DNA of 56,778 nt, the filler included, from Bipalium vagum (taxonomy: Eukaryota): the NCBI GenBank assembly GCA_037834085.1. It is 3 parts of 3 records of this genome, joined end to end, with 100 filler letters (N's around TTAATTAATTAA, not from the genome) between each part and the next. Parts side by side here need not be neighbours in the genome. Positions count along the whole stretch, not along the records: positions 40,442 to 56,778 come from JBBMKC010115606.1; 2 more parts are not named here. One strand, given 5' to 3'. The notes beneath the pieces are model-generated. The model did not search any database. It worked only from the letters and a program-made list of their open reading frames with translations, and was not told the origin of the DNA. The position numbers were made by a program, and so were the translations under genes. Shown here in pieces: positions 3,430-56,778 of this stretch. Position 1 is the stretch's first letter. Each line of letters starts with the position of its first letter.

Positions 3430-3663
3430 TTTTAAATGATCAATTTGACTTTCCAGTTCATCCCTAGTGGCTTTGAGCTGGTATAGTTTGGAATTCTCGT
3501 ATGATGACCATTGACCATTCTGAGTATTTGAATTTGAAACGCAATTCAGAGATGAATTAAGAACACTGGTTGAGATCGGGGGTTCTGAAAATATTGGACT
3601 TTGGCATGAACTCTGATTGTTTTGCAAATGAGTATTATGAGACAACACGGGACTGTTAGGAAC
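3430..3663 (-). CDS. Exon of ARHGAP17/44/SH3BP1-like N-BAR gene (VPNSPV...KLYQLKATRDELESQIDHLK)
   Basis: TTCACAG acceptor at 3665-3664. Phase 0 matches the preceding exon. Coiled-coil end. Donor GTAGTT at 3429 is weak and lies next to a gap. Confidence 0.65.
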
Positions 3664-4379
3664 CTGTGAAACAATTTTTAAAAATGAAAGTAGTAAAATC
3701 GAAACATCTTAATTTAAAAATAATTTTATGTAAGAGATGTGTGTTTCATTCGTTATTTTATTATTTTAAAAATATAGATTTCGTTATATATAATCTCCAC
3801 CAGTAAGCAAGAAAAATTATTTCAAAATCTTTTAACTTAACCCTTTAGAAAACAAAATAAAAACTCAAAAACCAACAGTAAAAAAAATAATTTAGAAGAT
3901 ATAATATCAATTAATTATTAATAATAATAATAATATAATAATAATAAAATTTCTTATTTAGATTAATACAAAAATATTACAATAGGCTTAGACCACTAAA
4001 AAAATAAAATATCTATTTCACCGCATAGAACTAAATAAACTAGATAATATATATAAATAATATAAATAATGAATAAAAATATATATAAATAATATGATAA
4101 ATATTATAATTAAATATTAAATATATAAAATAAAATATTAAATATATATAATATAAATAAATAATATAGGAAAAATAGAATTATATAAATGATCCTTATT
4201 ATAAAGCCATTTTTGAATTTTCTTCTCTTGGAATCAGTGCATGCGAATGATTTTGGTAATTCAAACATGATAAAATTTAAATATATAAATAAATATAAAT
4301 AATAATATAAATATATATAAATATATATTTAAGCAAATAATTTTAATTTAAAAATAGTGAAGTGGAATAAAATTCGTAC

Positions 4380-4602
4380 CAGAATATTGGAACTACTCTC
4401 CATCGATTTTAATCTATCTTGAAGAGCTTTAAGATCAGAATTTTGCTTCCATAAATGCCTACGACTTTTAACCAATGATGGAACTAATTCTTCATAGCAT
4501 ATCCTAAGTTTTTCAAGTACTCCACTTTCAACATTGGCAGCCCATTGCAATCGTTCCAAAGCAAGTTTATTATTAGTGTCTCCTAACACAGATAATATCT
4601 TC
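4380..4602 (-). CDS. Exon of ARHGAP17/44/SH3BP1-like N-BAR gene (KILSVLGDTNNKLALERLQWAANVESGVLEKL...SLVKSRRHLWKQNSDL)
   Basis: TTTTAG acceptor, GTACGA donor, 223 nt (phase 2 to 0). Helical pattern typical of BAR helix 2. Confidence 0.8.
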
Positions 4603-5094: not shown

Positions 5095-5174
5095 GAAACA
5101 TGGGGGTTTAGTAACGATAGTCTTTCAGCAGAATAATAAAGCGACTGAGCTAAATTTTGTTCGGGTAATTTTTT
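5095..5174 (-). CDS. Exon of ARHGAP17/44/SH3BP1-like N-BAR gene (KKLPEQNLAQSLYYSAERLSLLNPHV)
   Basis: CTAG acceptor, GTAAGT donor, 80 nt (phase 0 to 2). KKLP..LAQ matches the RICH/SH3BP1 BAR motif as I recall it. Confidence 0.8.
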
Positions 5175-9115: not shown

Positions 9116-9338
9116 CGAAATTTTCTCAGAATCATTGGGTAGCTTTGACCAGTTCTGATTCCAAACGTTTCCAGTTGAACCGACTATTGAATTATTATGA
9201 TAGCATCCAGAAAAAATTGGACACAATAGTAGTCGTTTAGTAATGTCTTGACATATTTTTTTAAATTCAATGGCTTCCTGTTCTATCTGAATAATATTAT
9301 CAGGCCAGTTACAAGGTGCTTCCGTGTTCTTGTCATTT
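9116..9338 (-). CDS. Exon of ARHGAP17/44/SH3BP1-like N-BAR gene (NDKNTEAPCNWPDNIIQIEQEAIEFKKICQDITKRLLLC...)
   Basis: TTTGATAG acceptor, GTGAAC donor, 223 nt (phase 2 to 0), open frame. Aligns by eye to the RICH-family start 'RAEKTE...LLQIE...IC...KRL..C' and joins in frame to the KKLP exon. Confidence 0.8.
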
Positions 9339-9795
9339 CTATCAAATTTAAATAAGCAAAAATTTATTTGATCAAATGAAACAAATTTGTTATTAATTTA
9401 ATTAAAACTCTTAAAAATAAAAAAATAAACTTCAACAAGCTTAAAAAACTAAAACCTTAAAAATTTATTTAATATCATATGTTTCATCTCTTATTGAATA
9501 TATATCGGTTTAGAGTAAAAACCAAAACTAAAACTTAAATCGTAGCTTTTCAACATATAAACTAAATCAAATATTAAAACAATTAACATTGAACATAATA
9601 TTAATAAAACAATTTACAACTTTAATTAAAAAAGTCAAAAACATATATATTCAAAACACTAATAAATATTAAAATATTTCATAAACACTTAAATCCAATG
9701 TTCAATATTTTAAAAAATTTCATATAATTGCTTTCACCAGGACTTCGGAAAAAATAAAACAACAATTATTTATAAAAACAATTATTCAAAAAATT

Positions 9796-9822: not shown

Positions 9823-10980
9823 TTAAAACACTTCAATATCCAAAGATCGTTTTCCCACTTTCTTTGCAGCTGTCGTTGGTTTCTTAGTTGTTGTACCCTT
9901 CTTCGCTGTTGTGGTTTTCTTTGTCGTCACACCTTTCAGTTCAAATTCATCTTCCAAATACAATTCATCACTCAATGANNNNNNNNNNNNNNNNNNNNNN
10001 NNNNNNNNNNNNNNNNNNNNNNNNNNNNNNNNNNNNNNNNNNNNNNNNNNNNNNNNNNNNNNNNNNNNNNNNNNNNNNTTCGCTGTTGTGGTTTTCTTTG
10101 TCGTCACACCTTTCAGTTCAAATTCATCTTCCAAATACAATTCATCACTCAATGATCGTTTTCCCACTTTCTTTGCAGGTGTACTTGATATTTTCGTTGA
10201 TACGAGTTTATTTGTTGTAGTTCCTTTCTTGGTCGTAAGAGCTTTTAGTTCTAATTCATTTTCGTAAAATAAATCTTCAAAATTTTTCCTGTTTACTCTT
10301 TTAGAATCGCTATTTATTTTCTTTTCATTTGCATATTTTTGTAAAACGTTTTCTACATAGTTTTTTACATTTTCTTCTTCATAAAAAGTTTTCGATGTTG
10401 CTAAATATTTCAAGCTTTCCGATTCAATTTTCTTTTCATTCACTTCAAATTCATTCTCATCAAATTTTTTGTCCCAATAGTTATTTTCAATTCCTGATTC
10501 GCAGAAGTCTTCATAGCGAGTGTATATTCGTTTACATTTGACATTAACTTTGTTATATTTCGTGGAACAATCTTTGTCCATCTTGCGATATTCTTTCGTA
10601 CAACCTCTGCTTAACGTTTTTGAGGATATTCGACAAACCTTATCTAATCTGTCAAGTTGTTTTCCACAATTTGCTGTGACATAACCATTGGTTTTTTCAC
10701 ACTCCTTTTTGATTTTCTTTCCTGCATCATTGCAACTTTCTTTTAGGGTCTTAAACATAGTACTGCATCGTTTGTCAATGTCTAGTGCAGTTTTGTCGCA
10801 GTATTCATCTATGGCTTGGTTGGCTTGGTCGCAGTTTTTTACTTGGGAAATTAGCTCGTTGCAGTGTAATCTTTGCTTTTTGTTCAGTAACAGAGTCTCC
10901 TCCTGTTTGACCACCAAGTCTCCAATTTCGCAATCAATTAATTGTAATCCTATATTAATGATTAAGAATATAATTATCAT
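9823..10980 (-). CDS. Secreted precursor: signal peptide + 12-Cys hendecad (CX10C) helical domain + repeated acidic / Lys-Thr-rich cassettes ending in GKR
   Basis: Longest ORF in the window. Hydrophobic N-terminus MIIIFLIINIGLQLIDC. Cys at residues 40,50,61,72...160. 44-aa C-terminal repeats spanning an assembly gap (9979-10078). TATA box upstream and polyA signal downstream. Confidence 0.85.
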   Translation of the reverse strand: MIIIFLIINIGLQLIDCEIGDLVVKQEETLLLNKKQRLHCNELISQVKNCDQANQAIDEYCDKTALDIDKRCSTMFKTLKESCNDAGKKIKKECEKTNGYVTANCGKQLDRLDKVCRISSKTLSRGCTKEYRKMDKDCSTKYNKVNVKCKRIYTRYEDFCESGIENNYWDKKFDENEFEVNEKKIESESLKYLATSKTFYEEENVKNYVENVLQKYANEKKINSDSKRVNRKNFEDLFYENELELKALTTKKGTTTNKLVSTKISSTPAKKVGKRSLSDELYLEDEFELKGVTTKKTTTAXXXXXXXXXXXXXXXXXXXXXXXXXXXXXXXXXXSLSDELYLEDEFELKGVTTKKTTTAKKGTTTKKPTTAAKKVGKRSLDIEVF

Positions 10981-12769: not shown

Positions 12770-13480
12770 CCTTAGATCGGCTCGATCAAAAGAGAAACTT
12801 GAAAAATAAACGAAAATATTTAAGTCAACTAAAAGATTTAAAAACGAACACAAATAATTTATAAATTTATTAAACAAGTAATTGATTCGATATTCCTCGA
12901 TTGAATCTTTTGGCGCCACCGCTATTCATATAGATATGATTGCAAGAGATCACCATAGACGCCCTTCATTGACACGATCTTAGTTTTCAGTTTCCCCAAA
13001 ATCGATTCTAAATTTTCATCTTTAGACATTTCTGCATAGAAATTAATAACGACAGATTTTGGAATGACCGTGTCTTCAGTGACTGGCTTTTATGATCTAC
13101 CCAGGGCCCATAAATGTAGAAAATGAATACATCTATTTGGAGGTAGTTTAAATTTCTCAAAGAGTTTTTTCTAATAGAAAAATACCTATTGTAATTTATG
13201 CAATTTTCGTGTAGCAGTGCATTTATCTAAAAACATTAATATTAAAATTAGTATTATAAATTACCTGATAGAAATAACAGAACTAAAAACTTAAATCTCC
13301 TAAAAACATAATTACACCGGATGGAACACCCATCACTATGCTGTTTATTTATTTAATATCCATTTCTTTATTATAAACATGAAAAAGTTGAGTATTTATA
13401 AAAAAAATAATTAATGTAATCGATCGGTCAAAAAAGATACTTGTTAATAATTTTGGTCAAAAAAGATAATTGTTAATCCT
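12770..13480 (-). mobile_element. Merlin-like element remnant (inverted relative of the 51090-52190 copy)
   Basis: 13027-13110 is the near reverse complement of 51740-51823, and 12899-12958 matches 51983-52028. GGTCAAAAAAGA subterminal repeats at 13425-13467. Confidence 0.65.
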
Positions 13481-23907: not shown

Positions 23908-24583
23908 TCAAAAACATGAATTCATGCGATCCGGACACCTTATGAGAATTTCGGTGCCATCTTCTTTTATAGCGCCCCAAACCATTAAACTCTTGCCACT
24001 GAATTTTACAGTTTTTGTTATATATTTGGGACTATATCTGAATCCTTGTGGTCTGCGAACGTATTCTCTTCTTCTGGAACATAATTCTAGCCTACATTCG
24101 TCTGTAAAAATGACCTCATTCCAAAAAGAAGGAAGTAATTTGCCATACTCTCTGCACCACTTTAAGCGATTCTTGATGTGCCGCTCATTCAACAGCGGTT
24201 TCTTTGCTGCAATCCGTCCAAATAACCCATACTTCCTAAGAACACGTTTCACAGTACTTACTGAAGAAGTTTGACTTCCTTCCAATTCAAGCAATAGCTG
24301 ACGTGCTGTTTTCTTGGGATGTTCCTTTGACATACGAATTAGCCATCTTTCAGATCTTGCTGTATTTTTTGGCTTTTTATATATCTTCCAATGTTTTATG
24401 TTGTTGCAACTTAAGTTGGATACGTTGCACTGCATGCCGTGATAAATTAAGCATATTTAAAATTTTTCTTTGTGAACAACCGTCTTTCAATTTTTGAATT
24501 ACTAAGATTCTCAAATCCATCGACAACCGAGTCATATTTAACCAAAATATTTCTAAAAATATATTAGATAACAATGTGTAAAA
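23908..24583 (-). mobile_element. Tc1-like transposase, 5' two-thirds, frameshifted
   Basis: MTRLSMDLRILVIQKLKDGCSQRKI (HTH), GRIAAKKPLL, WNEVIFTDECR, SLMVWGAI motifs. Truncated before the catalytic E. Confidence 0.9.
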
Positions 24584-24683
24584 NNNNNNNNNNNNNNNNN
24601 NNNNNNNNNNNNNNNNNNNNNNNNNNNTTAATTAATTAANNNNNNNNNNNNNNNNNNNNNNNNNNNNNNNNNNNNNNNNNNNN
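24584..24683. other. Artificial scaffold spacer N44-TTAATTAATTAA-N44
   Basis: A palindromic 12-mer with stops in all six frames, centred in a 100-bp N block. Identical construct at 40342-40441. Confidence 0.9.
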
Positions 24684-40689: not shown

Positions 40690-41145
40690 AAATCCATGAA
40701 GGTGATTCAGCATGATTTTACAATGAGGCCTATCTAGTTTGGGAATCCCTAGACGACCGAACGTGACCTAGTGGGCGACCGGGGGACCGATTGTCGCTGA
40801 GGTTGAGAGAGTTTTCTTTTTGTTATTTCACATTTGATTTAATCGACATTTGATGTAATTGACATTCGATATTATTGACATTTGAGTATTATAGTTTTAG
40901 CATCTGTAGTACATTTTTGATGAACTTAAACATTTATTGTGATCTGTTTGAGTATTGATTGCTTTCATATTGAGAATTGTAAAAAAGTTTTTTGTGTATT
41001 TTGGTTCACACTAGTGCACACAGAGATAAAGTTTTATAGGGATTTTGTTGACTTGATAGATGATAGATTTTTGTGGTAATTTAAATTTAACGAACACGAT
41101 ATCAACAAAGTGAGGAGTTAGGGAAGTTTGAGATAAAAGTTACAT
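40690..41145 (+). mobile_element. 3' part of an LTR-family copy
   Basis: GCGACCGGGGGACCGATTGTCGCTGAGGTTGAGA resembles the reverse complement of 18430-18470. Ends AAGTGAGG...AAGTTACA like other copies. Confidence 0.5.
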
Positions 41146-41984
41146 ATATTTTATTTAAATATTACATATATTTTTCTGGTGCCCCTCTTATTAAAAGCAT
41201 TTTTTCTTAAATTACAAACGGTTAAAATTGAGATTTTCTTTAATGAGCAATTTATTTAAACAAATTTTTAAACATATTTTTTCAAGAATAAATTAACAAA
41301 AAAATATTTCCAAATATTATTGATAAATCCGGATAATTCGTATCAATAAAGTTTTTTTTCACTTTGTTGAGAATAATTTAATTGAATTTTATCCTTTCGA
41401 AAATTACCAACTATCTTGTTCCGAGACAGGAGACATTTTCAATCATACATTACCTAAAAGATCAGATCTTGGTTTTCGACTCCGCGATCAATCTATAGCG
41501 CCGTTCTAAAGGCTGGAATATCGGCACGATTTTCTTGATGATCGTCCAGGAAATTCCTGTGAACTCTGAGACATTGTCGTGAAGAGATTTGTTCAATTAT
41601 TTATGCCTTTTGCGAGCAATAACACGAAACGCTGTATATTGTAATAAATACCTCACCATTACCTCAAACTGTCAAGGTAATTAACAATAATCTCACTCGT
41701 GAAACAGATGAATTATTTATCGTAAAGGCAGACTGTCATTTACTTTATTATTTTTTTCTTTTATCCTTTGACTATATTTTTTTTATTGAACATTATTAAT
41801 TTAAACAGACTTTTTTATTTTTTAAAAATTATTTATTTCATCTTTAAAAAGTTACCAAAGTCCGCGAAACTGAGTTTTATATTTAATCAAAATTATTATT
41901 ATTTTGTTTATTTAAATTAAATTTTAATTAATTAAATTTCAAATTAATTTCTCTTTTTAAGTTTGTAAATAAAAAAATAATATA

Positions 41985-42639
41985 CGTTGGTGAATCAAAA
42001 AGTAAAGATACAAAGCATTTAATATTTTTCGTAGATAAGCAATAAAACCATAATACGTTATAACTTGTTTGCTACAATAAAATAAGAAATATTGATTAAA
42101 GGAATATTTTTATATCAATTTTAGATAAAAAACATGAAGCCTGTTTTAAAAAATTGCACCAAATAAGAACAAAAAGCTGTTATTCGTTTTTTGTATGCAG
42201 GTGTTTCTTCAGCTGATATTCACCGAAGAATGCTTGCCCAATACGGAGTAAATAGTTTTAACCGACAAAACGTAAATATGTTGGTAAACAAATTCATAAA
42301 TGGACGAACAAGCCTAAAGGATGAAGATCGGTCCGGAAGACCTGAAACATCGAAAACAGTTGATAACATTGCACAAGTTGAAGAAATAATCAAAAAAACA
42401 GGTGACTTACCTATTTGGACCCATGAAAGAGAAATTAGAAGGAAAAAATCGGTGAAAGATTTCTTGAAAGCAAAAGACAAAAACGTCTTTGCTAAAGGAA
42501 TGCAGAAGTTAGTTGACAGATGGACGAAGTGCATCGAAAAAAATGGTGATTATGTTGAAAAAAAATTGTCTGTATATGTTATAATTTTTGAAAATAAAAT
42601 AATATAAAGCTTGTATCTTTACTTTTTGAGTCACTCACA
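41985..42639 (+). mobile_element. Short non-autonomous mariner deletion derivative with TIRs
   Basis: TIRs GTGAATCAAAAAGTAAAGATACAAAGC / GCTTGTATCTTTACTTTTTGAGTCAC. The ORF fuses the HTH region (LKDEDRSGRP) directly to the C-terminal GMQKLVDRWTKCIEKNGDYVEK. Confidence 0.85.
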
Positions 42640-44916
42640 TAAATTCAAGTTGATTTTTAAGTTAGAGTTTTATGAAAATTTTCGATAATCTACTTTTTAA
42701 ATAGAAAATTTTTTTTTAATGATTTTTAATAAAAAAAGAAAAAATTGATAAAAATGTTTGCTCAGAAATAAAAAACTGTTATTATATTTTATAAAAAAAA
42801 TAATATAAAATTGATTGAAATTTTAAAAATTGAAAAAATTCAGCTAATTTAAACAAAAGAATAAAAAAATATTTATCAGATCATCTGCTTTTAGTGTGAA
42901 AAAAGCTCTTCAATTACAAATAAAATATTTAACAGGATAATGTTGTCTTACACGTCTCTTTTTATTTTTTCAATTTTATTTATCAAAATAATTCAGGAAA
43001 ATATTCATAATTGCAATAAAAAAATTTTTCAACGTAAATTTAAAATAATTAATTTTAAAAAATTTTTTCAAGGAAAATGATAAAAAGAGTGAATTAATTT
43101 ATACCATGAGAATCTTCAATCTTAAAATCAAATAAAAATGAATAAATAAAACCAATAAAATAATCATTATAAAATTGAGAATCTTCAATTTTACAACCTA
43201 ATAAAAATAAATCAATAATTTTTTAAAAAATATCGAATTAAAAATTCAATGGTTTGATAATTTAATTGGTTTGAAAATTCCTTTTTCCTGTGCAGAAAAA
43301 ATAACTATGGGCTTGTAACTTGTTGACGTTAGTATAGCGACCATGGTGAATTTTAATTTGCCCATACTAATCAACATACTAATCAGGGTTTGTCACGTCA
43401 TTTGTAGGTTTTATCATTACATTTTTAATTTTTTGCTTTATCTTTAATAAATGGATAGAGCCTTTTTCCATAAATATAAAAAATATAAACGTAATTTGTA
43501 TCGAAAACAAAACATAATCAAATATATTTTTTGTAACAAATCTTATCCAACGTCAACATTTATCTATAAAAAATCTTGGGTATTGATTTATGCTTCTTGG
43601 AAATCGTTTTCAAAAGGAATAGAATTCTTTGAGATGAAAGAGAGAAAGAGAGGTTAAGAGCTCTTAAGTTACACTATCAAAACTATAATTGTTGGCTGAG
43701 GAAGGAAGAAATCATAAAGTTAAAAGCTCAATACTTTAAAATAGAGACAAACAAATCACATTGATCCAGATTTATGAATAGTCTGATCCAGAGATAATGC
43801 AACAATCAGAAATATAAATCTTACAGATCATAATCAATGTTGTCACTTATATTATTTTAAAATTATTTTTTTCTCAGTGTCTGGCTTAAAATGCAAAAAA
43901 AATTCGTTGAAGTTTTCACAATTTTTTATATCATTACTTTTATCGATTGGTAGTTTTCAATGTTTTCTTTATGATTATCTTAACTTCCTATTGATCAAAC
44001 CTACCACAAGTAGATTTTTCTCTTGCTTCACAACTAAATATATTCGAATTATCTGGAGTAGTCCACTTGCAGAAAATTCCAGAGTTTAAGGTGTCTCCAT
44101 TGATGAAGGAGTCGAGTGGTTAGTAAATTCTCCCTGTTTTCATTTCCACTTCAAGCCAATGAAAATATTGAAAGATTTTACAAAAATTTCTAAAAATATA
44201 TTTCAGAAATGAGATCCGAAAATATTTATTTTTAAGGATCAATTTTAGAATTTGTTTAAATGTGTCAAATAATTTTTCAAGGTTGTTTTATTTTGAATTT
44301 AGATTGTATAAATTTTTGTTAAAAATAGTACCATTTTTTTATACCAATCCATTATACCAATCTACCTTTGTTTTAAGAATTTTTTTTCATATTCTCAATA
44401 TTTCATCAGTATACAAAATGTTTAATTAATGATAAATTTTTATGCTTGTACGATTTTTGGTACCGAATACTTAATGATCATTTAAACAAATTTCATTGAA
44501 TTTAAAAGGAATCTGGAAAGAAAAACTAAAATGATATAAAAGCTGTCCACTAATTATTGGCTTGTGCACATGAAATTTCGGATTGTGCAATCATTTTTGA
44601 ATGAAATATCACATTTAAATATAAAATAAGAACTCTAATACAATTATACAAGTCCAGATGTTTTTAAAAGTATTTTTGTGCTTTTGTTTATCAAATGGTA
44701 CCCGAAGACTGAAACAGATTAGTTGCTTTTCAAAAATCTGTATATTAACAACAAAGTAATTGAAAAATTAAGTTTGTTTAAATATTTTAATTTGTAAATT
44801 AAAACTGGCAATTTTATTTGAAAAGTACGTTTAAGTAATATTTTCAGTGATATAATAAAGTATGTAGAAGCTTGAATATAGTTATAATGATTGTAAGATA
44901 AATTGAAAATTAGTCG

Positions 44917-44947
44917 GGGGATGTAGCTCAGTGGTCCCGGTATCTCC
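44917..44947 (+). pseudogene. Internally deleted tRNA-Ala remnant
   Basis: GGGGATGTAGCTCAGTGGT (tRNA-Ala 5' end with A-box) joined to CCCGGTATCTCC (3' T-stem/acceptor strand). The anticodon arm and most of the T arm are missing. Confidence 0.7.
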
Positions 44948-47900
44948 GATTAATTTTCAACTAACAACGATTTTTCAACGATTGATTGCGTTGTCGAATA
45001 ATAACGACTAAAGTCAGAGATTTTAAATGAATGGGGTATGTTGCTCAAAGTCAAGAAATGGCGGATTGTGGATAAATAATTAAAACCGCGGTGAAAGTTG
45101 TTTATATTTCTACCATCGTATATTCGAAAAACAAAAAAAAATTTTAAAATTATTTTTTTCTGTTTTAGTCTTTTAGTACCATTGGGTAACCAAAACACAA
45201 AACTGTAAACAAAAGACAGTTATGTAAAGCGTAGTTTTGCCATAAATTCTTGTCCGCGGGAATTCGAATAATTAACCTAAATTTTAATTTGTTAATTACA
45301 CATTTGAATAATTTGTTTAACTGCTCTTCACTTTATTAAAAAGATAATAAATTAAGTAATTATTATGAAAATTAAATTTTTTAATTTGTTTAAGTAGTCC
45401 TGCCAAGAAATCATAATTATGGAAAAAGTAAATGTTACTAAACAAATTATTTATTGATTAATAAATAATGGAACTTTGGAATCAAAAATATTAAATTTTT
45501 TTTCTAAATGATTAATAAATAATGTGAAAAGTGTCAGTCATTTGTGTAATAAGACTTTGAAAAAGGAAAAGGATGTAAGCCAAGGAAGTAGGCAATAACC
45601 CCAGAAATATTATATTCTTATAAGTGTTAAAACAAAGTTTTACTGATGTTTAAAATGTATAAAAACAATAAAATTGAAAAGTATTTTAACACTCAGACGG
45701 CTGAAGAAATAAACTTACGCAATAAGCTGAATATATACACTTGTAACTATATTTGTCAAAAAACATATATCAATAATTATTTCAATCAATAATCAATTAT
45801 ATATACTAGGGTGAGTCAAAGTGTTAAAGGTCTTAATTAACAAAACATGAAAAGCCTGTAAAAAAAGAAATCAAATTCAATCTTAGAAAAAAAATCTATT
45901 GTGATCTATTTGATCCTTTTGGCCAAATTTTAAATTACGACGCGAAGAATTCGTTGATTTTGACCTTGGTGTATTGCAAACTGGCAAAGGTTCGCCGTGA
46001 AGGAAATAAGCAATCGACCTGAAAAGATAATAGCCAGTAGGCGATTATACAGGATACTCAACCAGCTCGATCACATCAAGATGTTGAAGTTTTCGCTGGG
46101 TTTGCGGACGGTGTTGATGGAGGCATTATCTTGCTACAGGAGAACTTGTAGATATGTCAAAAAAATCAGATTAATATGACTTTTCAAAAATATAAATTTT
46201 CAAATCAAAATGAATTTTTTGGAACTTTGCTCATTTTCCTGTAAGAAGGTATTTGGCTGACCAAAAGTTTCTTAGAGTCTCAAAATATAATTTATAAATT
46301 TTATTCTTATCTGTAACTTTCCAATTAAGAGACCAATTTATTATTAAATTTTCAATGGAAGTTAAAATGGAACTGTTGATGAATCTTCTGGTTGATGTTG
46401 TTTTGTCCAGTTTAATTTTCATAAGCAGGATTTGAAAGACAAGCCAAAGACCGGATGAACCCAAGTGTCTTTTTTCAATGTATCGATTCAATAACATTTG
46501 GAATGATATATATCAGTCTGGGTAAAAATAAATGTTTGGTAACTTTTTTAAAGAAAATATTTGAATTCTTTTTGTTGAAAATTATGTATTGATTAATAAT
46601 TGTATTTCGTTATTAGAGTAAAATATAAATTGATTGTAATTATTTCTAATTATATATATATATAGATAATATATAAATAGATAATAGAAATATTGGAGTT
46701 TAATGAGGCTGATCGAAAATATGTTTTGCGATTTGGGGGAGGAGATGAGAATCTGGCCATCGACCTTTGACTTTAAATTGTCACTTGTTGAAAAAAGGCA
46801 TTGAGTTAGATTCTCAGTAATCCACACGCGAATTTCCCTATAAGTCTGATTGTTCTCAGAAGAATATCTGTAACAAAATACAACAACAATTATTTTTGTG
46901 CAAGATTTACTGACAGCTTATCATACTGGTCCAGGAAAAAATTTGATTGAACTAAAACTATACTTTAATTTATTTAACTCAAAAAAAAATATAAATAAAA
47001 TATAAATAAATTTATGAAGAAAACGATCATTCGGAACAAAATTCCCCTTTTAGTTATTTTCTTTTTTGTTTAATACTTTCTCCAACCTTTTTAATGTCTA
47101 AAAATCAGAATATTCCCAAAAAATCTTTCAATATTTTTTAAAATAAAAAATCTAATTAAATTCACAACAGAATTAATTGGTCATTAAAATGACAGAATTA
47201 ATACAATTTACGATTTAATTAATTTCTAAATAAAAATAATTACAATTTTGATGATATTAATTAAATAATGAAACAAAAATTAAATATTATCAATTTTGAT
47301 GAGTGAATAATGGGAAAAAATCGATTTCATGTTGATTTAAATGTGAATTTTTCATTTTATTAATTTTAAATTGATTATTAAGTTTTAATTAAAAATCATT
47401 AAAAAAACAATGGGATTCAAGACTAAAATGTCATCAATCACGGAAATATTGATTACATAGAATTTAAATTCAAGTAATTACAGACTCCGTGAGTAATGGA
47501 CAAACATAATAAATCAACAGGTGTGTTGGCAGATTATGCGACGAGGTGTGTGCGTAGGTGTGTATACGTGTTTCTAAGTAGGTGTTGGTTAGTATTCATA
47601 TAATGATGCCTACCATCAGGTGATGTATACCACAAACAAGCATTAATAAATACACACACTCACAAACACACAAACACCCTCTTTTGAGCTTGTATATTCA
47701 ATGATTTTGATAAACAAAATCGAGCCAAGTTTTCGTGGAGATGATGCATATGTTTTGTGTTAAAGCGATTAATTTTTCGTGAAGATCTCTTTTTTTGTTA
47801 TGGATAATTTTTATTTTTATATATACAATTTCCTTTTAATCATTTCCATCATTTGCAACCGGTAAAGGGGACTTTTTGAAAACAAAGTCAACAACAACAA

Positions 47901-48287
47901 AAAAAAACAAATTGTTAATCGAAATTGGCCCCTTTGCATCAAATACTCTACAAATATTTTGCAGCGTTGACGACGCTTCCAATTTCACACCCGCGCATAC
48001 ATCCGCGCGCACACAACGCGCACACCGACGACCATTTGACAAAGTCATCAGCTCCAATCAATTTCTATTGGTCAACAGTAATTGACAGAGCTGATTTACA
48101 GTGATAGCCAACGCTGAATTGTGATTCTGCCTCAAGTTAAGAACTGTGGCCCAGAAGTTGATGCTAACGTCAATTTGTAAGTGTATATTTAGCTGATTTA
48201 AAGGCAAAATTAAAATTTGTCCAGCTCGTTCTCAGCGATCGAAGGTAATATATTTTTCATGGTAAAAAGTAATACTTCATAATTTTA

Positions 48288-48611
48288 TTAAACGAAAATT
48301 TTCATTTTTCCCCACCCGGGGTCCTTTTTCCATTCAGACTGTTTTCCCCAAATTGGTGGTACCTTTTCCCAACCAGGTTGTTTTCCCCAAATTGGTGGTA
48401 CTTTTTCCCACCCGGATCGTTTTCCCCACATTGTTGGCACCTTTTCCCATCCGGATCGTTTCCCCCACATTGCTGGCACCTTTTCCCACCCTCTCTTTTC
48501 TTTCTTTGGACATTTACCTGTAAAAACTGCAGATTTATCATTGCACCTCACTGGATCTTCATTTGAACAGGTCACAAATACGACCAGAAAACACAATGTT
48601 ACAATAATCAT
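48288..48611 (-). CDS. Wamide (MIP/allatostatin-B-like) neuropeptide precursor, 107 aa
   Basis: Signal peptide MIIVTLCFLVVFVTCS; KR-GWEKVPAMW-GKR, SGWEKVPTMW-GKR, SGWEKVPPIW-GK, QPGWEKVPPIW-GK, QSEWKKDPGW-GK. The ATG at 48611 directly follows a TTTATATTCAG acceptor. Confidence 0.85.
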   Translation of the reverse strand: MIIVTLCFLVVFVTCSNEDPVRCNDKSAVFTGKCPKKEKRGWEKVPAMWGKRSGWEKVPTMWGKRSGWEKVPPIWGKQPGWEKVPPIWGKQSEWKKDPGWGKMKIFV

Positions 48612-51089
48612 CTGAATATAAATATAACTGATAATAATAATCATTATGATAAAAGGAAAGTAATATAAAAATAAAATCTTTAGTAAAGAACAAAGCCTGA
48701 AAATTTTTTTTTAATCTTTTTTCTGCGGGTTCTTTTTAAAAAAAATTTTATTTCCATAGGAGAAAAGTCCCCACCCACATAAAAATATCAATTACTTTTA
48801 ACATGTGGAAAGGTATTTTGTTTTAATCGAGCGAAGAATCTGCCTTAAGTAGTGACCGATATGCTGTTTGTTCAACAAATTAACTTCCACTCCTTAATGC
48901 ATTTTTGTGTCAACATGGACATATTTTTTTATTTATTTTTCTTGGTAAACGTGATCCTAATTGAGACACTTTAGCTTTTGCTGTCAGATGGTGTACCAAA
49001 ACCGTTTACGTCTTGGTCCCCATCAACCAGCAATAATGAAGTGATTTGCATCGAAACTTGAAAAGAATAAATTCAATATTGAATTGTTTTATTTATATTT
49101 AAAAATGCTGTCCAACGTTCAGTGTTGATTAAAATTAGTCAATTTTTACCGTATCCTTTGAAGCCTCTACGGATTGGTTAAGGGTTGCATTTCCTCTGAT
49201 ACGGGAGTGATCCGTCAGATGATGGAGAAAAGTTGGTGAAAATTGTGAAAAGTTTTCTTTTTTCGGTGAGTAAATTACAATTTATCGATTTCATCAAGAT
49301 TTATACTTTATATTATATTTATATATAATTATTTATATTTACAGATTGTTTTTGGTGTATCATTTAAAATTATTATCGGAAAGTTTTTCTTTTATATATT
49401 TTATCACATCTAAAACGGATAAGCGTTAATGCTATTAATTGTAAAACGATTTTTGAAATAGTTCTAAATAAAATGAATATTTTGTTTGAATCAACTCGAA
49501 TAGAAGTTTATTAATTATTTTATATATTCCAATTTCCAATAATAAATTAATTTTTCCTAATTAAATAAATTGAATTAATCACTTCAAAACCTGCCTTTCT
49601 TTTTCGTTATAAAAATTGTTATATTTTTATTAATTTAGGCTTATTTCTTCGGACGAAGTCATTTCTTCAGAAAAAGTATTTAATTGTAGGAAGAACCGAT
49701 TTCGTCCGCTTTATGAATAATTATATATGAAAGAACTTTTCAAATAATCATTATAGTAATAGTCAATGAATGGCTGTCGTTTGGGCTGTAATGATTTCAG
49801 TCGACTCTATTATGTGTGTTCCTCATTAACATTGAAAATGGATACCGACTGCAGTTCTAATAAATGGTTCTTAACTCTGAAGAGTTTTAAATGGGGGGAG
49901 GGGGTGGTTAAATGGTCCTCCCTAAAGTTGGAATAAGGAGTAAATAGTTGACTGATGAACAGGTTTGAGACCGTACAACTGTTGAAGACGATTTGGTTAT
50001 TATGTATCGTAGCAATTGGAAAAATCGGTCATTATAATAATTTCCTAAACTGCCTTAACAATAAAAGATTAATGAAATCAATTCTAAATCACAAATTAAT
50101 CAATTTTATTGTTATTGGAAAATTCTGTTACTAATACCGAAACTGATATCCAGATATTATAATTTTCTGTGTACCATATTTTTCCATAATAATAACAAGT
50201 TAATCAATAATGCAGTCTCATCTTTATTTACATCTTTTTTTCCACCAAGCAGTAGATATCAATACACCAGAATTTACCAGGTAAGATCTCGCAGTTGTTG
50301 AGTCATTGTTGTCAAAGATGGTAATCGAACGGAACTAGATCACTCAAAATAGTATGAAAACACGAAGAGGTCTATAAGAATTGCGATAATCAATAATAAA
50401 AATAGTGTGGTAAAAGTCTTTTTTTCTAAGTCACATATTCTGGGATCATGGCTTCAAGTAAAGTAATAGTTAAATTTTCCTTTATATAATAGTTCTGGCG
50501 AGTTGTTATCGTCTAGTTGTAAACCCATATGTTACATGTCAAAAATTATTTCCTGATATTTGCAATTGGTCAGCAAAAAGCTGATACATAATTATTGATA
50601 TCAAAGTCCCCTTTGAATCAGATGTCTCTTTTTAATGTTAAGATAAAGTAAACAAGTAAATATCAGATTTAATTAGATGAAACTAGTCAAACTCGGGAAG
50701 AACATGGTGCTCTGACATCAGAAAATTTATAGTCGGAACTGGAAGCTTGTGAATTCCGTCAAACTAAAAAACTCGGGGCCTTGTGATTTATAAAAGTCAA
50801 AATTAACAGTATAATGGAAAAATGTGCTGTCACAGCAATCATCGAAATTCATAAAATTTGGAAAAATTCATAGCTAGAACAGAAACAAACATCTAAAAAT
50901 TTCCAATGTCTATCACAACCATATGCTTGATTTAAAGTATATCACGGTTTTTGTTTTTGTGCCATAAGAAGTTGTTAACTATCTTCCAATATTGATTTTC
51001 ATTAATGGTTTTCATTTTCATTTCCGAAAAAGTAATGATCAATCAATTTTATAGTCCAAAACTCAAATTTTGATTGGATAGAGTTTTGT

Positions 51090-52190
51090 GGTTTCTTGGA
51101 TCATGTTTTTTGACCGAAATGACTATCAAGTCTCTTTTTTGACCTATCTCAATTTTTCATGTTAATATTAAAGAAATAAATATTCCATCCTATGCAATTA
51201 TGTTTTAAGGGAAAACAGTTAGGAAAACTATAATTATTACTGATTGGTTTTTAAATTTAAAGAAATTCAAAGTACCTTAAATAAACGTGTCCATTAAAAA
51301 AAGCAATACTTTTGGACCATCTTTTTTTCTTATTTCTTTTTGATCTTTACTTAGTTTATTTCTCTTTTTTTCACCAATCTTGGGCAGCACAGAACACAAC
51401 AAATGTTCATCATTCACTCACATAAAAGGAAAACCAAGACTTATCTGAGTGTAGAATGGATAACTCACAACTCCCTTAACACACCAGTTCCTAATTATTC
51501 CGAAAATACCTTGATGTACAAAATAAATCCCATTGCTATATCACTTTCCAACCTCAAAGATATTGTCGTGTAGATGAGCGAATGAATCAGAATACAATTC
51601 CTTGATTCATTCATTGATGGTTACTTATTGACCCTTTATTGTTCTTACGATTTTATAAAAAATATAGATAAATAAATAAGGGATAAAAATAAAGATAACT
51701 TTTTAAGTTCTTGGTCATAGCTGTGAAGCTAGAAGCGATGGGTCCCGAGAAGATCATAAAAGTCAATTCCTGAAGACACTGGCGTTTCAAAATCTGTCGT
51801 TATTAATTTCTATGCAGAAATGAGGAAGAAATGTGAGATTTTTTCTTGAAAATTAAATAAAAATTGGAGAACCCATGTTCTAAACTGTTTAAAGATGAAA
51901 TTTATGTTCATCGAACTGTCAACCACAAGATGATAGGGAGACTGGTGCTCGCACGCAAAGATTTGAATCGATTTGGGGGAAAACTATGGTGATCTCTTAA
52001 AGGAATGTGGCGCTAAAATATTCAATCGAGAAACTGTAAACCAGTTTTTTATTTAATAAATTTACAAAAAGAAAATTATTTACTTTTGTTATTTTTACGA
52101 TTTGTTTCAAGTCTCTTTTTTGACCGGTCAATCGTTTCAAGTATGTTTTTTTGACCGGTCAATCGTATCAAGTCGGTCAAGAAAAACATT
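51090..52190 (+). mobile_element. Merlin (IS1016/ISXO2-like) transposon remnant
   Basis: TGVSKSVVINFYAEMRKKC, VHRTVNH and ETGARTQRFESIWG motifs at 51775-51980. TTTTTTGACC subterminal repeats at both ends. Confidence 0.7.
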
Positions 52191-52459
52191 ATCCGGTTTC
52201 TCAATTCATGATTGTCTTAAAAATTGTTTCAGAAGGATTTTCTTTACTATTAAATTGTCACATATGAAATGTCCGAATTTTGAAAACTTTTCTAACTAAT
52301 ACAAGTCAAGTATTAATTAATTATTATTATAAATAACTATCATATAAAATTTATTAATATATCAATTTGAAATTTGAAAAAGGAATAATCGTTAGATAAT
52401 CTTTGTTTTAATTTTAGAATTATTTATCAAAATTTCAGATGACAAGGAATTAAAAATAA

Positions 52460-52770
52460 AAAACACGGAATTGCGAACTATATTTTTATTTAAATGGAAA
52501 TTGAAGCATGATTGAACATAAGCTGCCCAAGACAATTTTTTCCGCATTGGAGACGGTTCAGTTAATGAACGAATAATTCGCGTTAGTTCGACAAATTTCA
52601 AAAAGGTTACCTAACCATGCTCAATGTTGGCAGATAGCACACCAGTGTTCTAATTAGTAACGACGATTTACGAATCGAGGTTGAATTAAATACTAACAAA
52701 ACCAATCGAGAACTTGGAAAAAAGTTGAAGGTTAGTCGTCACACTATTTCGAGACATTTGAAATAATAAT
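52460..52770 (+). mobile_element. Mariner N-terminal fragment
   Basis: KNTELRTIFLFKWKLKH...GDGSVNERIIR...TNRELGKKLKVSRHTISRHL, with stops. Confidence 0.65.
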
Positions 52771-53824
52771 GTTTAATTATAAAAGGTATTTTGTACTGAA
52801 TCAGGTAACTTGTTTATTTATTAAGTTTACAGTGGTTTTAGAACGGTCACAATGGCAAAAAGTAATAAAATATTTTCCAATAGTTTCCACAACATTAGAT
52901 ACAATTTTATAGTGAATTTTAAAAAAAAATTTGTACCTTGCTTAGTTTTTACTTTCCACAGTCAATTCTTAAGATTTACTGATAACAGTAATACAAATCA
53001 CTTTACTGAGAAAAATCGACATCCAATTTAAAACTTCATTCCATTTTTGAAAACTTTGACGGAAATTATTTTATTTTACACCATTAATAATTTCTTTTAT
53101 AAACTATTCTTATTCTTCATCTTGTATGATGGCGAATATTGGTCACTAGATATGGTTTTTTATTTAAGAAATGGGTTATATGAGTCATGTATAGTGCTGG
53201 ACAATTTTTTTTGACCATCAAATTTTTTCAGTTATTAAACTCAAATCTTTTTATTATAATAAGTTGTACATATAAAAATAATTAAATATTTATATTAAGA
53301 TTTAAGAATTAATTTAAAAAATCTAAAATATGATAATAAAGAAAAAATATTTTCACCATTTTATTTTGTTGTTAGATTTGTCAATAAATATGACCTTTAA
53401 TATTTGTTTGAATATTATAACTAATTTAAAATCGTTAATAATTAAATTCAATTATTCATATTTTTGACATGTATTCAGCTGATTTCATTAACAAAGTTCG
53501 GGGCCTATACGAGAATAATAAAAATTACAGTAACAATGCATATAAAAATGTATATATGATTTCAGTTATCGTGTTTAAATAAGATTATTTTGTATAATTA
53601 AAAACTGAATACATACATATGTTTTATAATTGTTTATTTAATAGTTTTTCAGGTTAGTTTACTTGATAACGAGGACTTGGAAAATTCTACTTTGCTAAGG
53701 AGCCAATCCAACCAAAGGCAAATGTTCTTTTGACAAAGGATTTACGTATCGTGCCATACGCATGTTTGTTTTAGTTTAAAGAGGACTATGTAATATATTA
53801 ATATTATTGTAGTTATTATTATTG

Positions 53825-54480
53825 CAGGTAGCGGAATACTTAATGTAGTTTTTTAAAATCAATTTTCAAATGGACAACATTTTATTCAATAATCAAACAA
53901 TATGTTCACCAAATTATTTAACAACTCTTTCCAATCTCGAATACATCAATATTCCACCACACGCAAAACGAAATCTTCCGGAATGAATTTCAGGCTTCAC
54001 GCGTGGACTTGTGGATTTAGAAAATTATATTTTTTGGACACATTCTTTTCTTTTTTTAATATAGATATATAAACACCATTTTTCATCGTCCGTGAAGATG
54101 AATCACAGAAATGGATGATGTTGTAGAGGTAAGCGATGTCGATCAAGTAGTGAAGTACACACCCTGATACAATTACCCTTGTTTGAGTCACCCAAATCAT
54201 ATGGTATCCATGCACCAAGTTTTTGCACCTTTCCCATAGTGTTGAGATGATTCATCGGAGTTTTAGGAGAACAATTCATAGTCTCAAAATTTGGTGTCCA
54301 TTTATATTGGATCATCATTAAGAAGTACTTCCAAACACCATTCAAAAAACAAAAATGGTATTCCTGTTCTTTGTTAATCATTCATGTTGGATTTTTGAAT
54401 TTTTAAAGCTTTTCTATTGCGATCTCTGTATTTCGAGCGATATATTTCATAAAAGTATAATAAAAAGTGGGAAATGTTCA
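53825..54480 (-). mobile_element. Degenerate mariner element
   Basis: HLNTMGKVQKLGAWIPYDL...CIRVCTSLL (WVPxxL linker). TIR-like CAGGTAGCGGAATAC at 53825. Confidence 0.75.
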
Positions 54481-55939
54481 ATATTATCTAGGCACGTTTT
54501 TAAAAAACTGTATAAAAGGTTTATTATGAAAATAAAATGTTTACTTTAGAAAGGACAATTATTATCCTTTAGAATAAGTCAATAAAAACTGGATCAATAT
54601 CTATTAAGTGTATAAAAATCTGGTTTTAATTACACGACATGAATTTATTGGACCGCCAAATATCTCTTGTAACAGAAAATAATTATCGTTAGTCAATAAA
54701 AAATGACATTAAATATTCCGGTATCTTATTTTTATTATCATCCTCATTTAATTAAAACTTTATTTTTATCTTTCACACACCGAAATCCATTTATTTCGCT
54801 TTCTGTATGGTGAAGTCATTCAAAAAACCGTTCTCATTTGATTATACCTGAAAGATGGATTACTGAAGACTTTGAGAACACTTAAACAATGTCGATTTTA
54901 TTAAGCATCGAAAAAGGCGCGATTTGGAATTTTTGAAAAAAAATAAAATCAATTTGTTAATTTTTTTTTATTTTCGTTTTCCAAAGATGAGATCACTCTT
55001 TGTAAATCAGTCTTTTTTGTTGAAAATGGAAATGAAATTTGTGACGAAAATATTTTTGAAACATGACACCCGATTTGAAATTTTATAATAAATATAATGA
55101 TAATAATATAATCTTCATAATTTCCATAATGCCCCAATTGAAAACGTATTGTTTCATAACCGATGGGCGAATTTTTCCTTGATTGGTTTGCTCTGATAAT
55201 TTACATATCTCATTGTTATCATTATTCTGACTTCTGTCTACATTCGTTTTCGTCCTTGATCACAATATTTCCCCGTGCTATCACTATTATCATTAAAGAA
55301 TCATTTTACTCGAGATTGTCAATAATAATTATTGTCATCATAATTATAATTCAGAAATTATTATAATTATTGATATGGGCCTGTATTTAAAACAAAAAGG
55401 AACATTGTGACATTTTTGTTTTAATTATAGTTATAATTCAGACGCAACTATTATGAATTTTGGCTTATTATGAATTTTTTTGCCCCTATTTTACTGGTTT
55501 ACTGTTCCCCGGTATTATCATATTTTATTCACCAAATGCCAATAAATAAATAGTTTGAGACAACTGATTATTTTTTGTATAAAAGATTTTAATCGAAAAT
55601 TTCGATGAAAAATGATTTCACTAACATCATTAATAACGTCAAGATAAGACAAAAAAGATAACCAGGCCCTAATCATGTGTGTGGTCAGCTCCATCGATAA
55701 AGAGTGTGTAAAAAGTGAGTATCGGATTTTAAACTGTAATATTGTTAAATATACTTAGGCTAATATTGAACGTTTTGCAAAATGAAATAAAATTATTAAG
55801 AATCAATATTTTTCAACAAAAAATCAATCAACACTAAAACAATACAAAAAGCAGTCATAGCATTTTAAAATATTTTTCGTGATACTCTACCGCCTTCTGT
55901 TTAATTGCATATCTCAGATCTCTTTGGCTTTTTGGTTTT

Positions 55940-56110
55940 CTTGTATCAACCTTTGTCTTTAGATATCCCCAAATAAAGAAATCCATTGGGGAAAGATTTG
56001 GAATAGTCACAGTCTGGCAATCCACTTTCTGTGGAATGGGGTCTGTAAGAAATTTCTGACTTCAAGTGAGTAATGAGCAGGTACATCTTGTTGGGAAAAA
56101 TTAAACTTGA
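55940..56110 (-). mobile_element. Tc1/mariner-superfamily catalytic-region remnant
   Basis: QQDVPAHYSLEVRNFL...KWIAR, followed by PMDFFIWGYLKDK-like sequence. Confidence 0.6.
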
Positions 56111-56304
56111 TCTTCTTCTCGTACTTGTTATGTACTGTATCACTAAAATCAACAAAATCTTTATAAAAGAGTATTGGTAGGTTGATAGAAGAAAAAATCA
56201 AAAGTAAAAACAAAGTTTTGAGTTATTTTAAACAAAATTATTTTTAAAAAGAAATAAAACTTATTTTGACTTATTTTATTTTAATGAGCAATTTTACAAC
56301 AAAA

Positions 56305-56600
56305 ATGGAGTCAAAACCACACATGCTTCGAGAGCGCGTTGTAAATTTTATGAAATCAACAAATCAAATGGAAAAGTTTTCTACTTTACAGTAGAGAGAG
56401 TAACAAGATCTACCATTTATTCGATTTTGACAGCATGTCAAAAAATCTAAAAATTCGCCAAAATAATGTCCAAAAAGGGCTTTTGACAATCGCGACAATC
56501 AAAGTCAGCAGCAACTAGCCAAGAAATTCAATTGCTCGAAAGGTTATATCTGAAAATTTCTTAAGAAGCTTCAAATTCAATGTCGTAAGAAGCAGAAATC
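56305..56600 (+). mobile_element. Tc1-like N-terminal remnant
   Basis: MESKPHMLRERVVNF...RSTIYSIL and SQQQLAKKFNCS HTH-like peptides, with frameshifts. Confidence 0.45.
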
Positions 56601-56778
56601 ACAAGATTACACAATTCAGAATACACCAGCCATAAAATTTAAGGCTTACACTACATACTGCAATGAATAATAGGCGCACGATTTCGAAACGAATAAGAAT
56701 TATAGGCTACAGAATCAAAACCGTAAATACATAGCTATATAGTAAACCTTTAAACATTCACATAGATAATTCAGTCAA

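What the first reader, a model, noticed from the sequence alone, without database searches (positions are those of the whole stretch)
48288..48611. W(X6)W-amide neuropeptide precursor with unusual Pro-containing peptides
Seen: a signal peptide, then four GWEKVPx(M/I)W-G peptides and a W(X5)W variant, encoded by 36-bp tandem units. Known: W(X6)W-amide is the signature of myoinhibitory peptide/allatostatin-B, ligands of the sex-peptide/MIP receptor, which regulate feeding, gut motility and larval settlement in protostomes. Inference: a lineage-specific MIP-like prohormone, short enough to be missed by annotation. It would be notable if the host lineage has no described MIP ligand.
Basis: partly seen in the sequence, partly recalled or inferred. 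Interest (0 to 1): 0.7.

Follow-up and report, generated by a model that had tools for sequence, protein, structure and literature searches.

The report
Divergent tryptophan-amide neuropeptide precursor gene
A small gene in an unidentified, probably flatworm-like animal encodes a hormone precursor resembling the gut- and feeding-regulating MIP peptides, which many flatworms are thought to have lost, and it lies back-to-back inside what looks like a microRNA cluster.

Summary
The ORF is real: 107 aa on the minus strand (48611-48288), with a hydrophobic N-terminus, four W(X6)W-Gly units and one W(X5)W-Gly unit. Corrections: the repeat unit is 39 bp, not 36, and only two of five peptides have dibasic sites on both sides. 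Changes between units are mostly synonymous (7 of 12, P=0.005), so it is under coding constraint. Of 81 database hits, 64 are MIP/allatostatin-B-like precursors, but the inner residues fit that set poorly (bottom 2%), and unit 5 best matches planarian CPP-1 (APGWamide-like). No identical or close protein was found. New here: a mir-133-like hairpin lies 361 bp upstream on the opposite strand. It shows a bilaterian host and carries a base also seen in four parasitic flatworms. A second long hairpin lies downstream, and another contig of the same run joins the two hairpins while skipping the gene. Verdict: a divergent Wamide prohormone that most likely works like MIP. Host, expression and receptor are not shown.

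The parts
48288..48611 (-). Prohormone ORF, 107 aa plus stop
   Evidence: carried without differences by a 5354-base contig of run X1, probably the source sample
48564..48611 (-). Predicted signal peptide, about residues 1-16; cleavage site inferred by eye
   Evidence: hydropathy; no signal-peptide predictor was available
48495..48563 (-). Short pro-region with two cysteines (C-X10-C), ending in KK-E-KR
   Evidence: sequence
48465..48491 (-). Peptide 1, GWEKVPAMW-amide, KR on both sides (predicted MH+ 1102.55)
48426..48455 (-). Peptide 2, SGWEKVPTMW-amide, KR on both sides (predicted MH+ 1219.59)
48387..48416 (-). Peptide 3, SGWEKVPPIW, followed by G-K-Q (single basic residue)
48348..48377 (-). 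Peptide 4, PGWEKVPPIW, K-Q on both sides
48312..48338 (-). Unit 5, SEWKKDPGW; the internal KK could release DPGW-amide, as in planarian CPP-1
48341..48488 (.). Tandem array, period 39 bp, 3.8 copies, 88% matches
48972..49039 (+). mir-133-like hairpin; mature arm about 49013-49034
   Evidence: Rfam RF00446, 23.6 bits, E 0.034 on + (24.0 bits on -), below the gathering score of 55.5; fold z -5.07, 0 of 200 shuffles as stable; 18 of 19 bases match the consensus core, 9e-7 such sites expected
48057..48162 (+). Long unassigned hairpin, candidate second RNA of the cluster
   Evidence: -40.2 kcal/mol on + versus -21.7 on -; z -3.81 for 48050-48195; no Rfam match over it
48195..48975 (.). 781-bp stretch holding the whole ORF, skipped by one other contig of run X1; a 7-bp direct repeat lies at its two ends
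   Evidence: one contig, depth 23.2, 'between: not known'; 280 of 50000 random pairs have 7 or more bases of microhomology

Best explanation
A compact, lineage-specific Wamide prohormone that works like MIP/allatostatin-B. Shown: an intact coding frame under synonymous-biased constraint, a hydrophobic leader, and repeated W(X6)W-Gly units with basic flanks. Inferred from general prohormone biology: the precursor enters the secretory pathway, a PC2-type convertase cuts at KR, carboxypeptidase trims the basic residues, and the amidating enzymes turn the terminal Gly into an amide. This gives at least GWEKVPAMW-NH2 and SGWEKVPTMW-NH2. Units 3-5 are released only if single Lys sites are cut, which would expose Gln for pyroglutamate; otherwise they stay as one longer peptide. 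Inferred: the two-Trp peptides act on a sex-peptide/MIP-receptor-type GPCR to modulate muscle, gut or feeding. The host is a bilaterian, more likely than not a flatworm (about 60%).
For: 64 of 81 phmmer hits are multi-copy W...W-G-[KR] precursors, and 359 of their 389 motifs have X6 spacing like units 1-4. Named hits include spider, horseshoe crab, barnacle and insect MIP/AstB/PTSP. The atlas's first hit is prothoracicostatic peptide at 0.85, a lead only. One unnamed hit, P0010, has W-x-D-M-P-A-M-W-G repeats and aligns at 41% over 80 positions. 7 synonymous versus 5 non-synonymous changes between units against 21% expected, P=0.005; the five other frames give 1-3 synonymous of 8-9. Both tryptophans needed for MIP receptor activation (Williams 2020, PMC7270403, sections read) are kept in all five units. 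The short leader, Cys-bearing pro-region and lack of acidic spacers resemble planarian prohormones (Collins 2010 Table S5, parts 1-2 of 3).
Against: The inner six residues score -1.9 to -5.5 on a profile of 307 hit peptides (median 10.6); 4.7-12% of random hexamers score as well; Val at X3 occurs in 0 of 307. The hits may therefore reflect W-G-K-R periodicity rather than orthology. 3 of 5 units lack a second basic residue after W-G-K, against 7 of 379 in the hit set. Unit 5 fits CPP-1 better than any MIP-like peptide (36 versus 27). Atlas recognition of 1769 is below its 2300 threshold. No orthologue from a related species was found. One contig of the same run skips the gene.
Confidence: 0.58

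Rival explanations
1. It belongs to the CPP-1/APGWamide line. Units of the form W-x-K-K-xPGW-G drifted to W-E-K-VPxxW-G, so the W(X6)W spacing is incidental and the products are short xPxxW-amides acting on an RGWamide/APGWamide-type receptor in reproductive organs.
For: Planarian Smed-cpp-1 has Q-W-x-K-K-T-P-G-W-G units, which also show W(X6)W spacing, and its first peptide is VPGW-amide. Unit 5 (W-KK-DPGW-G) scores 36 against it, above all 322 MIP-like peptides. 3 of 81 hits are APGWamide precursors.
Against: Units 1-4 have E-K, not a dibasic site, before V-P, and score only 16-23 against the CPP-1 motif versus 38-49 for their best MIP-like match (that set was selected for similarity to the query). 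The two C-terminal cysteines typical of APGWamide/RGWamide precursors (Thiel 2021, PMC8557429, passages) are absent, though Smed-cpp-1 lacks them too.
Confidence: 0.17
2. A secreted Wamide peptide precursor of independent origin or non-neuronal use, for example a gland product or a mimic aimed at a host's or prey's MIP receptor.
For: Poor inner fit to known MIPs; no close relative in any collection searched; odd position antisense between two RNA hairpins; recent-looking tandem units (88% matches).
Against: Nothing in the window shows a parasitic lifestyle or gland expression. The dibasic and amidation pattern is ordinary for a neuropeptide.
Confidence: 0.12
3. A decaying or dispensable copy of a Wamide gene that no longer yields functional peptides.
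For: An R-to-Q change has removed dibasic sites in the 3' units and the tail is abrupt. Another contig of the same run at similar depth skips the whole gene at a 7-bp direct repeat.
Against: The frame is intact over 107 codons, differences are biased to synonymous sites, and all ten peptide tryptophans and five amide-donor glycines are kept. The skip rests on one contig whose middle is not known.
Confidence: 0.1
4. A chance open frame in a non-coding tandem repeat.
For: Short G+C-richer tandem repeats often stay open in several frames; three other overlapping frames are open here too.
Against: Only this frame shows synonymous bias. The leader, KR sites and W-G-K ends line up as a prohormone. 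0 motifs in 30 of 30 shuffles.
Confidence: 0.03

Closest known systems
MIP / allatostatin-B / prothoracicostatic peptide precursors (e.g. Limulus XP_013784813, Megabalanus ATQ64324)
   Same: Signal peptide, tandem W(X6)W-Gly peptides separated by KR, G-W start, M-W-G end; E-K after the first Trp occurs in 10 of 307 hit peptides.
   Different: Shorter (107 aa versus a median of 183); Val-Pro core (Val at X3 in 0 of 307, Pro at X4 in 6 of 307); three of five sites monobasic; two-Cys pro-region; no acidic spacers between peptides.
Unnamed precursor P0010 (ENA record, no organism given)
   Same: W-x-x-hydrophobic-P-A-M-W-G-K-R repeats; best single-peptide match to unit 1.
   Different: N-D-M or K-D-M instead of E-K-V; 11-residue units with regular KR sites; long Ser/Asp-rich pro-region.
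Flatworm NPP-5 / PW-amides (Smed-npp-5: SAWRDMPW-amide, PNWKDMPW-amide, confirmed by mass spectrometry; Collins 2010)
   Same: Short precursor; tandem peptides starting S-x-W or P-x-W with hydrophobic-Pro at X3-X4; last unit starts S-[DE]-W-K in both (by eye).
   Different: W(X4)W ending P-W-amide, versus W(X6)W ending P-x-x-W-amide here; alignment scores of 19-28 are no better than mid-range MIP-like peptides.
Planarian CPP-1 and molluscan APGWamide (Smed-cpp-1)
   Same: W-(x)-KK-xPGW-G layout of unit 5; V-P after Lys; similar length.
   Different: Only one of five units has the internal dibasic site and PGW end.

Membership tests
MIP / allatostatin-B (Wamide) | N-terminal signal peptide | tested here: met
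   Hydropathy only; no signal-peptide predictor; no charged n-region
MIP / allatostatin-B (Wamide) | Repeated peptides with N- and C-terminal tryptophans | tested here: met
   4 of 5 units W(X6)W, 1 of 5 W(X5)W; the hit set has 359 X6, 9 X5, 18 X7, 3 X8
MIP / allatostatin-B (Wamide) | C-terminal Gly plus basic cleavage sites giving an amide | tested here: inconclusive
   Gly-Lys in 5 of 5; dibasic on both sides in 2 of 5
MIP / allatostatin-B (Wamide) | Activation of a sex-peptide/MIP receptor (or MIP-gated channel) | not testable with these tools
   No host genome held; needs a receptor assay
MIP / allatostatin-B (Wamide) | Neuronal or neurosecretory expression and processed peptides | not testable with these tools
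   No RNA holder listed, which is no evidence either way
Arthropod/nematode-type MIP consensus (the hit set) | Inner residues fit W-[NQ]-[NKD]-[LFAM]-x-[GS]-x-W | tested here: not met
   Bottom 1.3-1.6% of 307 peptides. Not filed as this type. Annelid and mollusc MIPs in the Williams 2020 supplement also depart from it, so this does not exclude the wider family
APGWamide / RGWamide / CPP-1 | xPGW-amide or RGW-amide released after a dibasic site | tested here: inconclusive
   1 of 5 units
APGWamide / RGWamide / CPP-1 | Two cysteines C-terminal to the repeats (most members; Thiel 2021) | tested here: not met
   The cysteines lie before the repeats; feature
Flatworm NPP-5 (PW-amide) | D-[ML]-P-W-amide C-terminus, aromatic(X4)W spacing | tested here: not met
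   Two extra residues between Pro and Trp
mir-133 (neighbouring hairpin) | Mature sequence with intact seed on the 3' arm of a hairpin | tested here: met
   18 of 19 bases; fold z -5.07
mir-133 (neighbouring hairpin) | Rfam RF00446 gathering score | tested here: not met
   23.6-24.0 bits versus 55.5; called 'mir-133-like' for that reason
mir-133 (neighbouring hairpin) | Small-RNA reads with mature/star offsets | not testable with these tools
   No RNA run listed

The most novel reading that the evidence does not exclude
The host is a freshwater or parasitic flatworm, a group reported to lack MIP, and this gene is its MIP. Its peptides bridge canonical W(X6)W MIPs and the flatworm W(X4)W NPP-5 peptides, which would make NPP-5 a shortened MIP and supply ligands for orphan flatworm sex-peptide-receptor-like GPCRs. 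The gene also lies antisense inside a mir-133 cluster and is missing from a second copy or haplotype of that cluster.
Probability: 0.27. Interest if true: 0.72.

Novelty: new variant of a known kind. Interest (0 to 1): 0.54.

Why it matters
MIP/Wamide signalling controls gut muscle, feeding and life-cycle transitions across protostomes. Williams 2020 lists it as absent from flatworms and rotifers; it has since been reported in a marine polyclad (Piovani 2023, passages; review PMC13551398, which says many freshwater and parasitic flatworms lost such peptides). Liver fluke has sex-peptide-receptor-like GPCRs whose ligands were not reported in flatworms (McVeigh 2018, PMC6114109, passages). If the host is such a flatworm, this gene offers ready-made candidate ligands and a testable link between NPP-5 and MIP. 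If the host is another protostome, it is a divergent but ordinary MIP-like gene. The antisense position beside mir-133 is a separate, checkable oddity.

Tried and rejected
No whole genome is held, so no receptor, paralogue or marker-gene search was possible. Word-seeded protein searches found nothing for the peptide ORF (394 candidates), a BAR exon or the CX10C secreted ORF. Pfam has no family for the ORF and gave no relevant family for 5 of 5 hit precursors scanned. Metagenome scans found no confirmed relative. Sequencing runs: no RNA holder listed; the single run X1 is probably the source. Not in print by my searches: the core hexapeptide in full texts (0 papers), the peptide motifs in the supplements of PMC2953531, PMC6425005 (two files cut when stored) and PMC8557429 (no match to this precursor), and the exact miR-133-like arm (0 papers). 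The supplement of PMC10396302, which lists the polyclad MIP, could not be read and may bear on the flatworm claim; subscription papers on parasitic-flatworm neuropeptides were not searchable. A planarian miR-133 sequence was not found. I first read 48177-48987 on + as an intron of a coding gene; the joined pieces give no long frame, and the hairpins explain the conserved flanks better. A retrocopy insertion is unlikely: there is no poly(A) at the 3' end, and the basal stem of the mir-133-like hairpin uses bases inside the skipped stretch (-27.9 versus -21.9 kcal/mol without them). A cnidarian or myxozoan host was dropped because mir-133 is classed as bilaterian. Rfam on 1-40441, the tRNA scan and the bacterial promoter scan gave nothing useful. 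Earlier scan notes held no look-alike; one note on a different Trp-amide precursor in another genome did not affect my reading. Structure and complex prediction were not run, as 10-residue peptides are unsuited to them.

Full report
Observation. The minus strand holds an open frame from ATG 48611 to TAA 48288, 107 aa. Residues 1-16 are hydrophobic. A 24-residue pro-region with two cysteines leads to KR and then five units: GWEKVPAMW-G-KR, SGWEKVPTMW-G-KR, SGWEKVPPIW-G-KQ, PGWEKVPPIW-G-KQ and SEWKKDPGW-G-K, followed by a five-residue tail. Only two peptides have dibasic sites on both sides. In the precursors found by search, 7 of 379 W...W-G-basic sites lack a second basic residue; here 3 of 5 do.

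Is it coding? Among units 1-4, 7 of 12 inferred changes are synonymous against 21% expected (binomial P=0.005). Over 11 codons the ORF frame gives 5 synonymous of 8, and the five other frames give 1, 1, 1, 1 and 3 of 8-9. The five motifs are the only ones in six frames of the window; 30 of 30 shuffles gave none. One contig of run X1 carries 46500-51125 without a difference. X1 is probably the source sample, so this checks the assembly only.

Relatives. The exact protein, with either start, is not among 15 billion proteins. A full phmmer scan gave 81 hits at E<=0.001: 64 with two or more W(X4-8)W-G-[KR] units, 3 APGWamide precursors and 14 others. Of 28 hits looked up, 8 are named MIP, allatostatin-B or prothoracicostatic peptide, 6 have an organism but no informative name, 14 have no name, and none is named as a flatworm protein. 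The atlas's first hit is prothoracicostatic peptide at 0.85, below its threshold for confidence. Against this reading, the inner hexamers fit the hit set badly: scores of -1.9 to -5.5 against a leave-one-out median of 10.6, with 4.7-12% of random hexamers doing as well; Val at X3 in 0 of 307 peptides and Pro at X4 in 6 of 307. Much of the similarity is thus the W...W-G-K-R rhythm. The best single-peptide match is an unnamed precursor, P0010, with W-x-D-M-P-A-M-W repeats.

Host. The window is about 26% G+C, rich in Tc1/mariner, hAT-like and reverse-transcriptase remnants, with CpG observed/expected of 0.90. It holds spliced exons of a BAR-domain gene (atlas 0.91; Pfam E 0.069; the ARHGAP17/44 label is my recall). 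Two N-flanked linkers (24584-24683, 40342-40441) look like contig joins, so only 40442-56778 is safely contiguous with the gene. In that segment, 361 bp upstream of the ATG and on the + strand, lies a mir-133-like hairpin: Rfam E 0.03 but below gathering, fold z -5.07, 18 of 19 bases equal to the consensus core. mir-133 is classed as bilaterian (PMC8016320, table row). The one mismatch, A at position 10, is also in miR-133 of Schistosoma japonicum (PMC2817716, passages), Echinococcus multilocularis and Fasciola hepatica (PMC7878377, passages), and in a Taenia multiceps precursor that I recognise as mir-133 (PMC3849562, passages). Caveat: I chose those search terms from recalled flatworm variants (5 papers, 4 on flatworms, 1 unrelated human), saw no planarian sequence and could not test other phyla. 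The precursor's style also resembles planarian prohormones (PMC2953531 Table S5, parts 1-2 of 3). I put a flatworm host at about 60%.

Flatworm comparisons. Planarian NPP-5 yields SAWRDMPW-amide and PNWKDMPW-amide. It shares the S/P-x-W start, the hydrophobic-Pro core and an S-[DE]-W-K last unit, but is two residues shorter. By alignment score it is no closer than mid-range MIP-like peptides, so this link is by eye only. Planarian CPP-1 has W-x-KK-TPGW-G units; unit 5 scores 36 against it versus 27 for the best of 322 MIP-like peptides, whereas units 1-4 score 16-23 versus 38-49 (the MIP-like set was selected by similarity to the query). The gene fails the defining C-terminus of NPP-5 and the C-terminal cysteines of APGWamide/RGWamide, so I file it under neither.

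Surroundings. A second hairpin of about 106 nt lies at 48057-48162 on the + strand, 126 bp past the stop; Rfam does not know it. The ORF therefore sits antisense between two structured elements, as if inside a primary microRNA transcript (inference). One other contig of X1, at depth 23.2 against 22.7 for the main one, matches both elements and skips 48195-48975, the whole gene; what lies between in that contig is not known. A 7-bp direct repeat marks the two ends (280 of 50000 random pairs reach that). The basal stem of the mir-133-like hairpin is better with the skipped bases, which favours loss or divergence in the other copy over insertion here. This rests on one contig laid at 85% likeness and is a lead only.

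Mechanism. Shown: intact constrained frame, leader, repeats, Gly-basic ends. Inferred: secretion, cutting at KR, amidation to two 9-10-residue W(X6)W-amides, with uncertain release of units 3-5 (possibly pyroglutamyl forms or DPGW-amide). Inferred from established MIP pharmacology, in which both tryptophans matter for the receptor (PMC7270403, parts 1-2 of 5 plus passages and its supplement): action on an SPR/MIP-type GPCR affecting muscle, gut or feeding. Confidence 0.58; CPP-1/APGWamide line 0.17; independent or non-neuronal Wamide 0.12; decaying copy 0.10; artefact 0.03.

Novelty. It works like a known kind and meets the sequence-level marks of the wider MIP family, but not the arthropod/nematode inner consensus, and receptor activation could not be tested. 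I rate it a new variant of a known kind. It matters most if the host is a freshwater or parasitic flatworm: Williams 2020 lists Wamides as absent from platyhelminths, De Oliveira 2019 found them only in molluscs, annelids, brachiopods and nemerteans among the groups it examined (PMC6425005, one passage), a polyclad MIP has since been reported (PMC10396302, passages; supplement unreadable), and fluke SPR-like receptors lack known ligands (PMC6114109, passages). That flatworm PW-amides have been clustered with Wamides before is my recall and was not checked; Williams notes platyhelminth sequences in that cluster. Also consulted as passages without bearing on the verdict: PMC3840308, PMC9495596, PMC4862687.

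Noticed in passing
window 48972-49039 (+): mir-133-like hairpin with a flatworm-like A at position 10 of the mature arm; below Rfam's gathering score, so routine annotation would miss it.
   Followed up: yes
window 48057-48162 (+): Long, strand-specific hairpin with no Rfam match, upstream of the mir-133-like hairpin on the same strand; candidate lineage-specific microRNA.
   Followed up: partly
window 9826-10980 (-): Secreted-looking ORF of about 385 aa (with an N gap): hydrophobic leader, about 11 cysteines at 11-residue spacing, then repeats of a Lys/Thr-rich stretch ending V-G-K-R followed by an acidic spacer, like an amidated basic-peptide precursor. No homologue found.
   Followed up: partly
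window about 9131-9345, 5095-5174, 4379-4602, 3424-3663 (-): Spliced exons of a divergent BAR-domain gene with a Ser/Asn-rich insertion; the three 3' exons join in frame. ARHGAP17/44-like by recall; the first exon's membership is unverified.
   Followed up: partly
window 51106-52000: High-copy dispersed repeat: summed depth 5500-11000 against about 23 for single-copy DNA; fragments recur at 13027-13111 and 13422-13470.
   Followed up: no
window 24584-24683 and 40342-40441: Identical 100-base spacers (44 N, a 12-base all-frame-stop palindrome, 44 N) that look like artificial contig joins; neighbours across them may not be linked.
   Followed up: partly
window 1200-2300, 23911-24456, 28271-28789, 37769-40162, 42167-42604, 54000-54381, 55858-56061: Broken transposon remnants: DUF659 hAT-like, Tc3/Tc1, mariner HTH and reverse-transcriptase fragments (the last two by eye).
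   Followed up: no
window 35762-36265 (-) and 36423-36949: Ser/Asn/His-rich 168-codon frame and neighbouring short frames without a Pfam match; possibly exons of an unrecognised gene.
   Followed up: no
window 47510-47680 and 47960-48035: G+C-richer, CA/GT-rich patches just upstream of the two + strand hairpins; could be the promoter of a primary microRNA transcript (by eye).
   Followed up: no
proteins P0013, P0017, P0048, P0032: Hits with F-amide repeats and an EF-hand-like C-terminus (P0013 from Lottia, P0017 from Patella); a similar tail appears in Lottia and Priapulus Wamide precursors in the Williams supplement.
   Followed up: no
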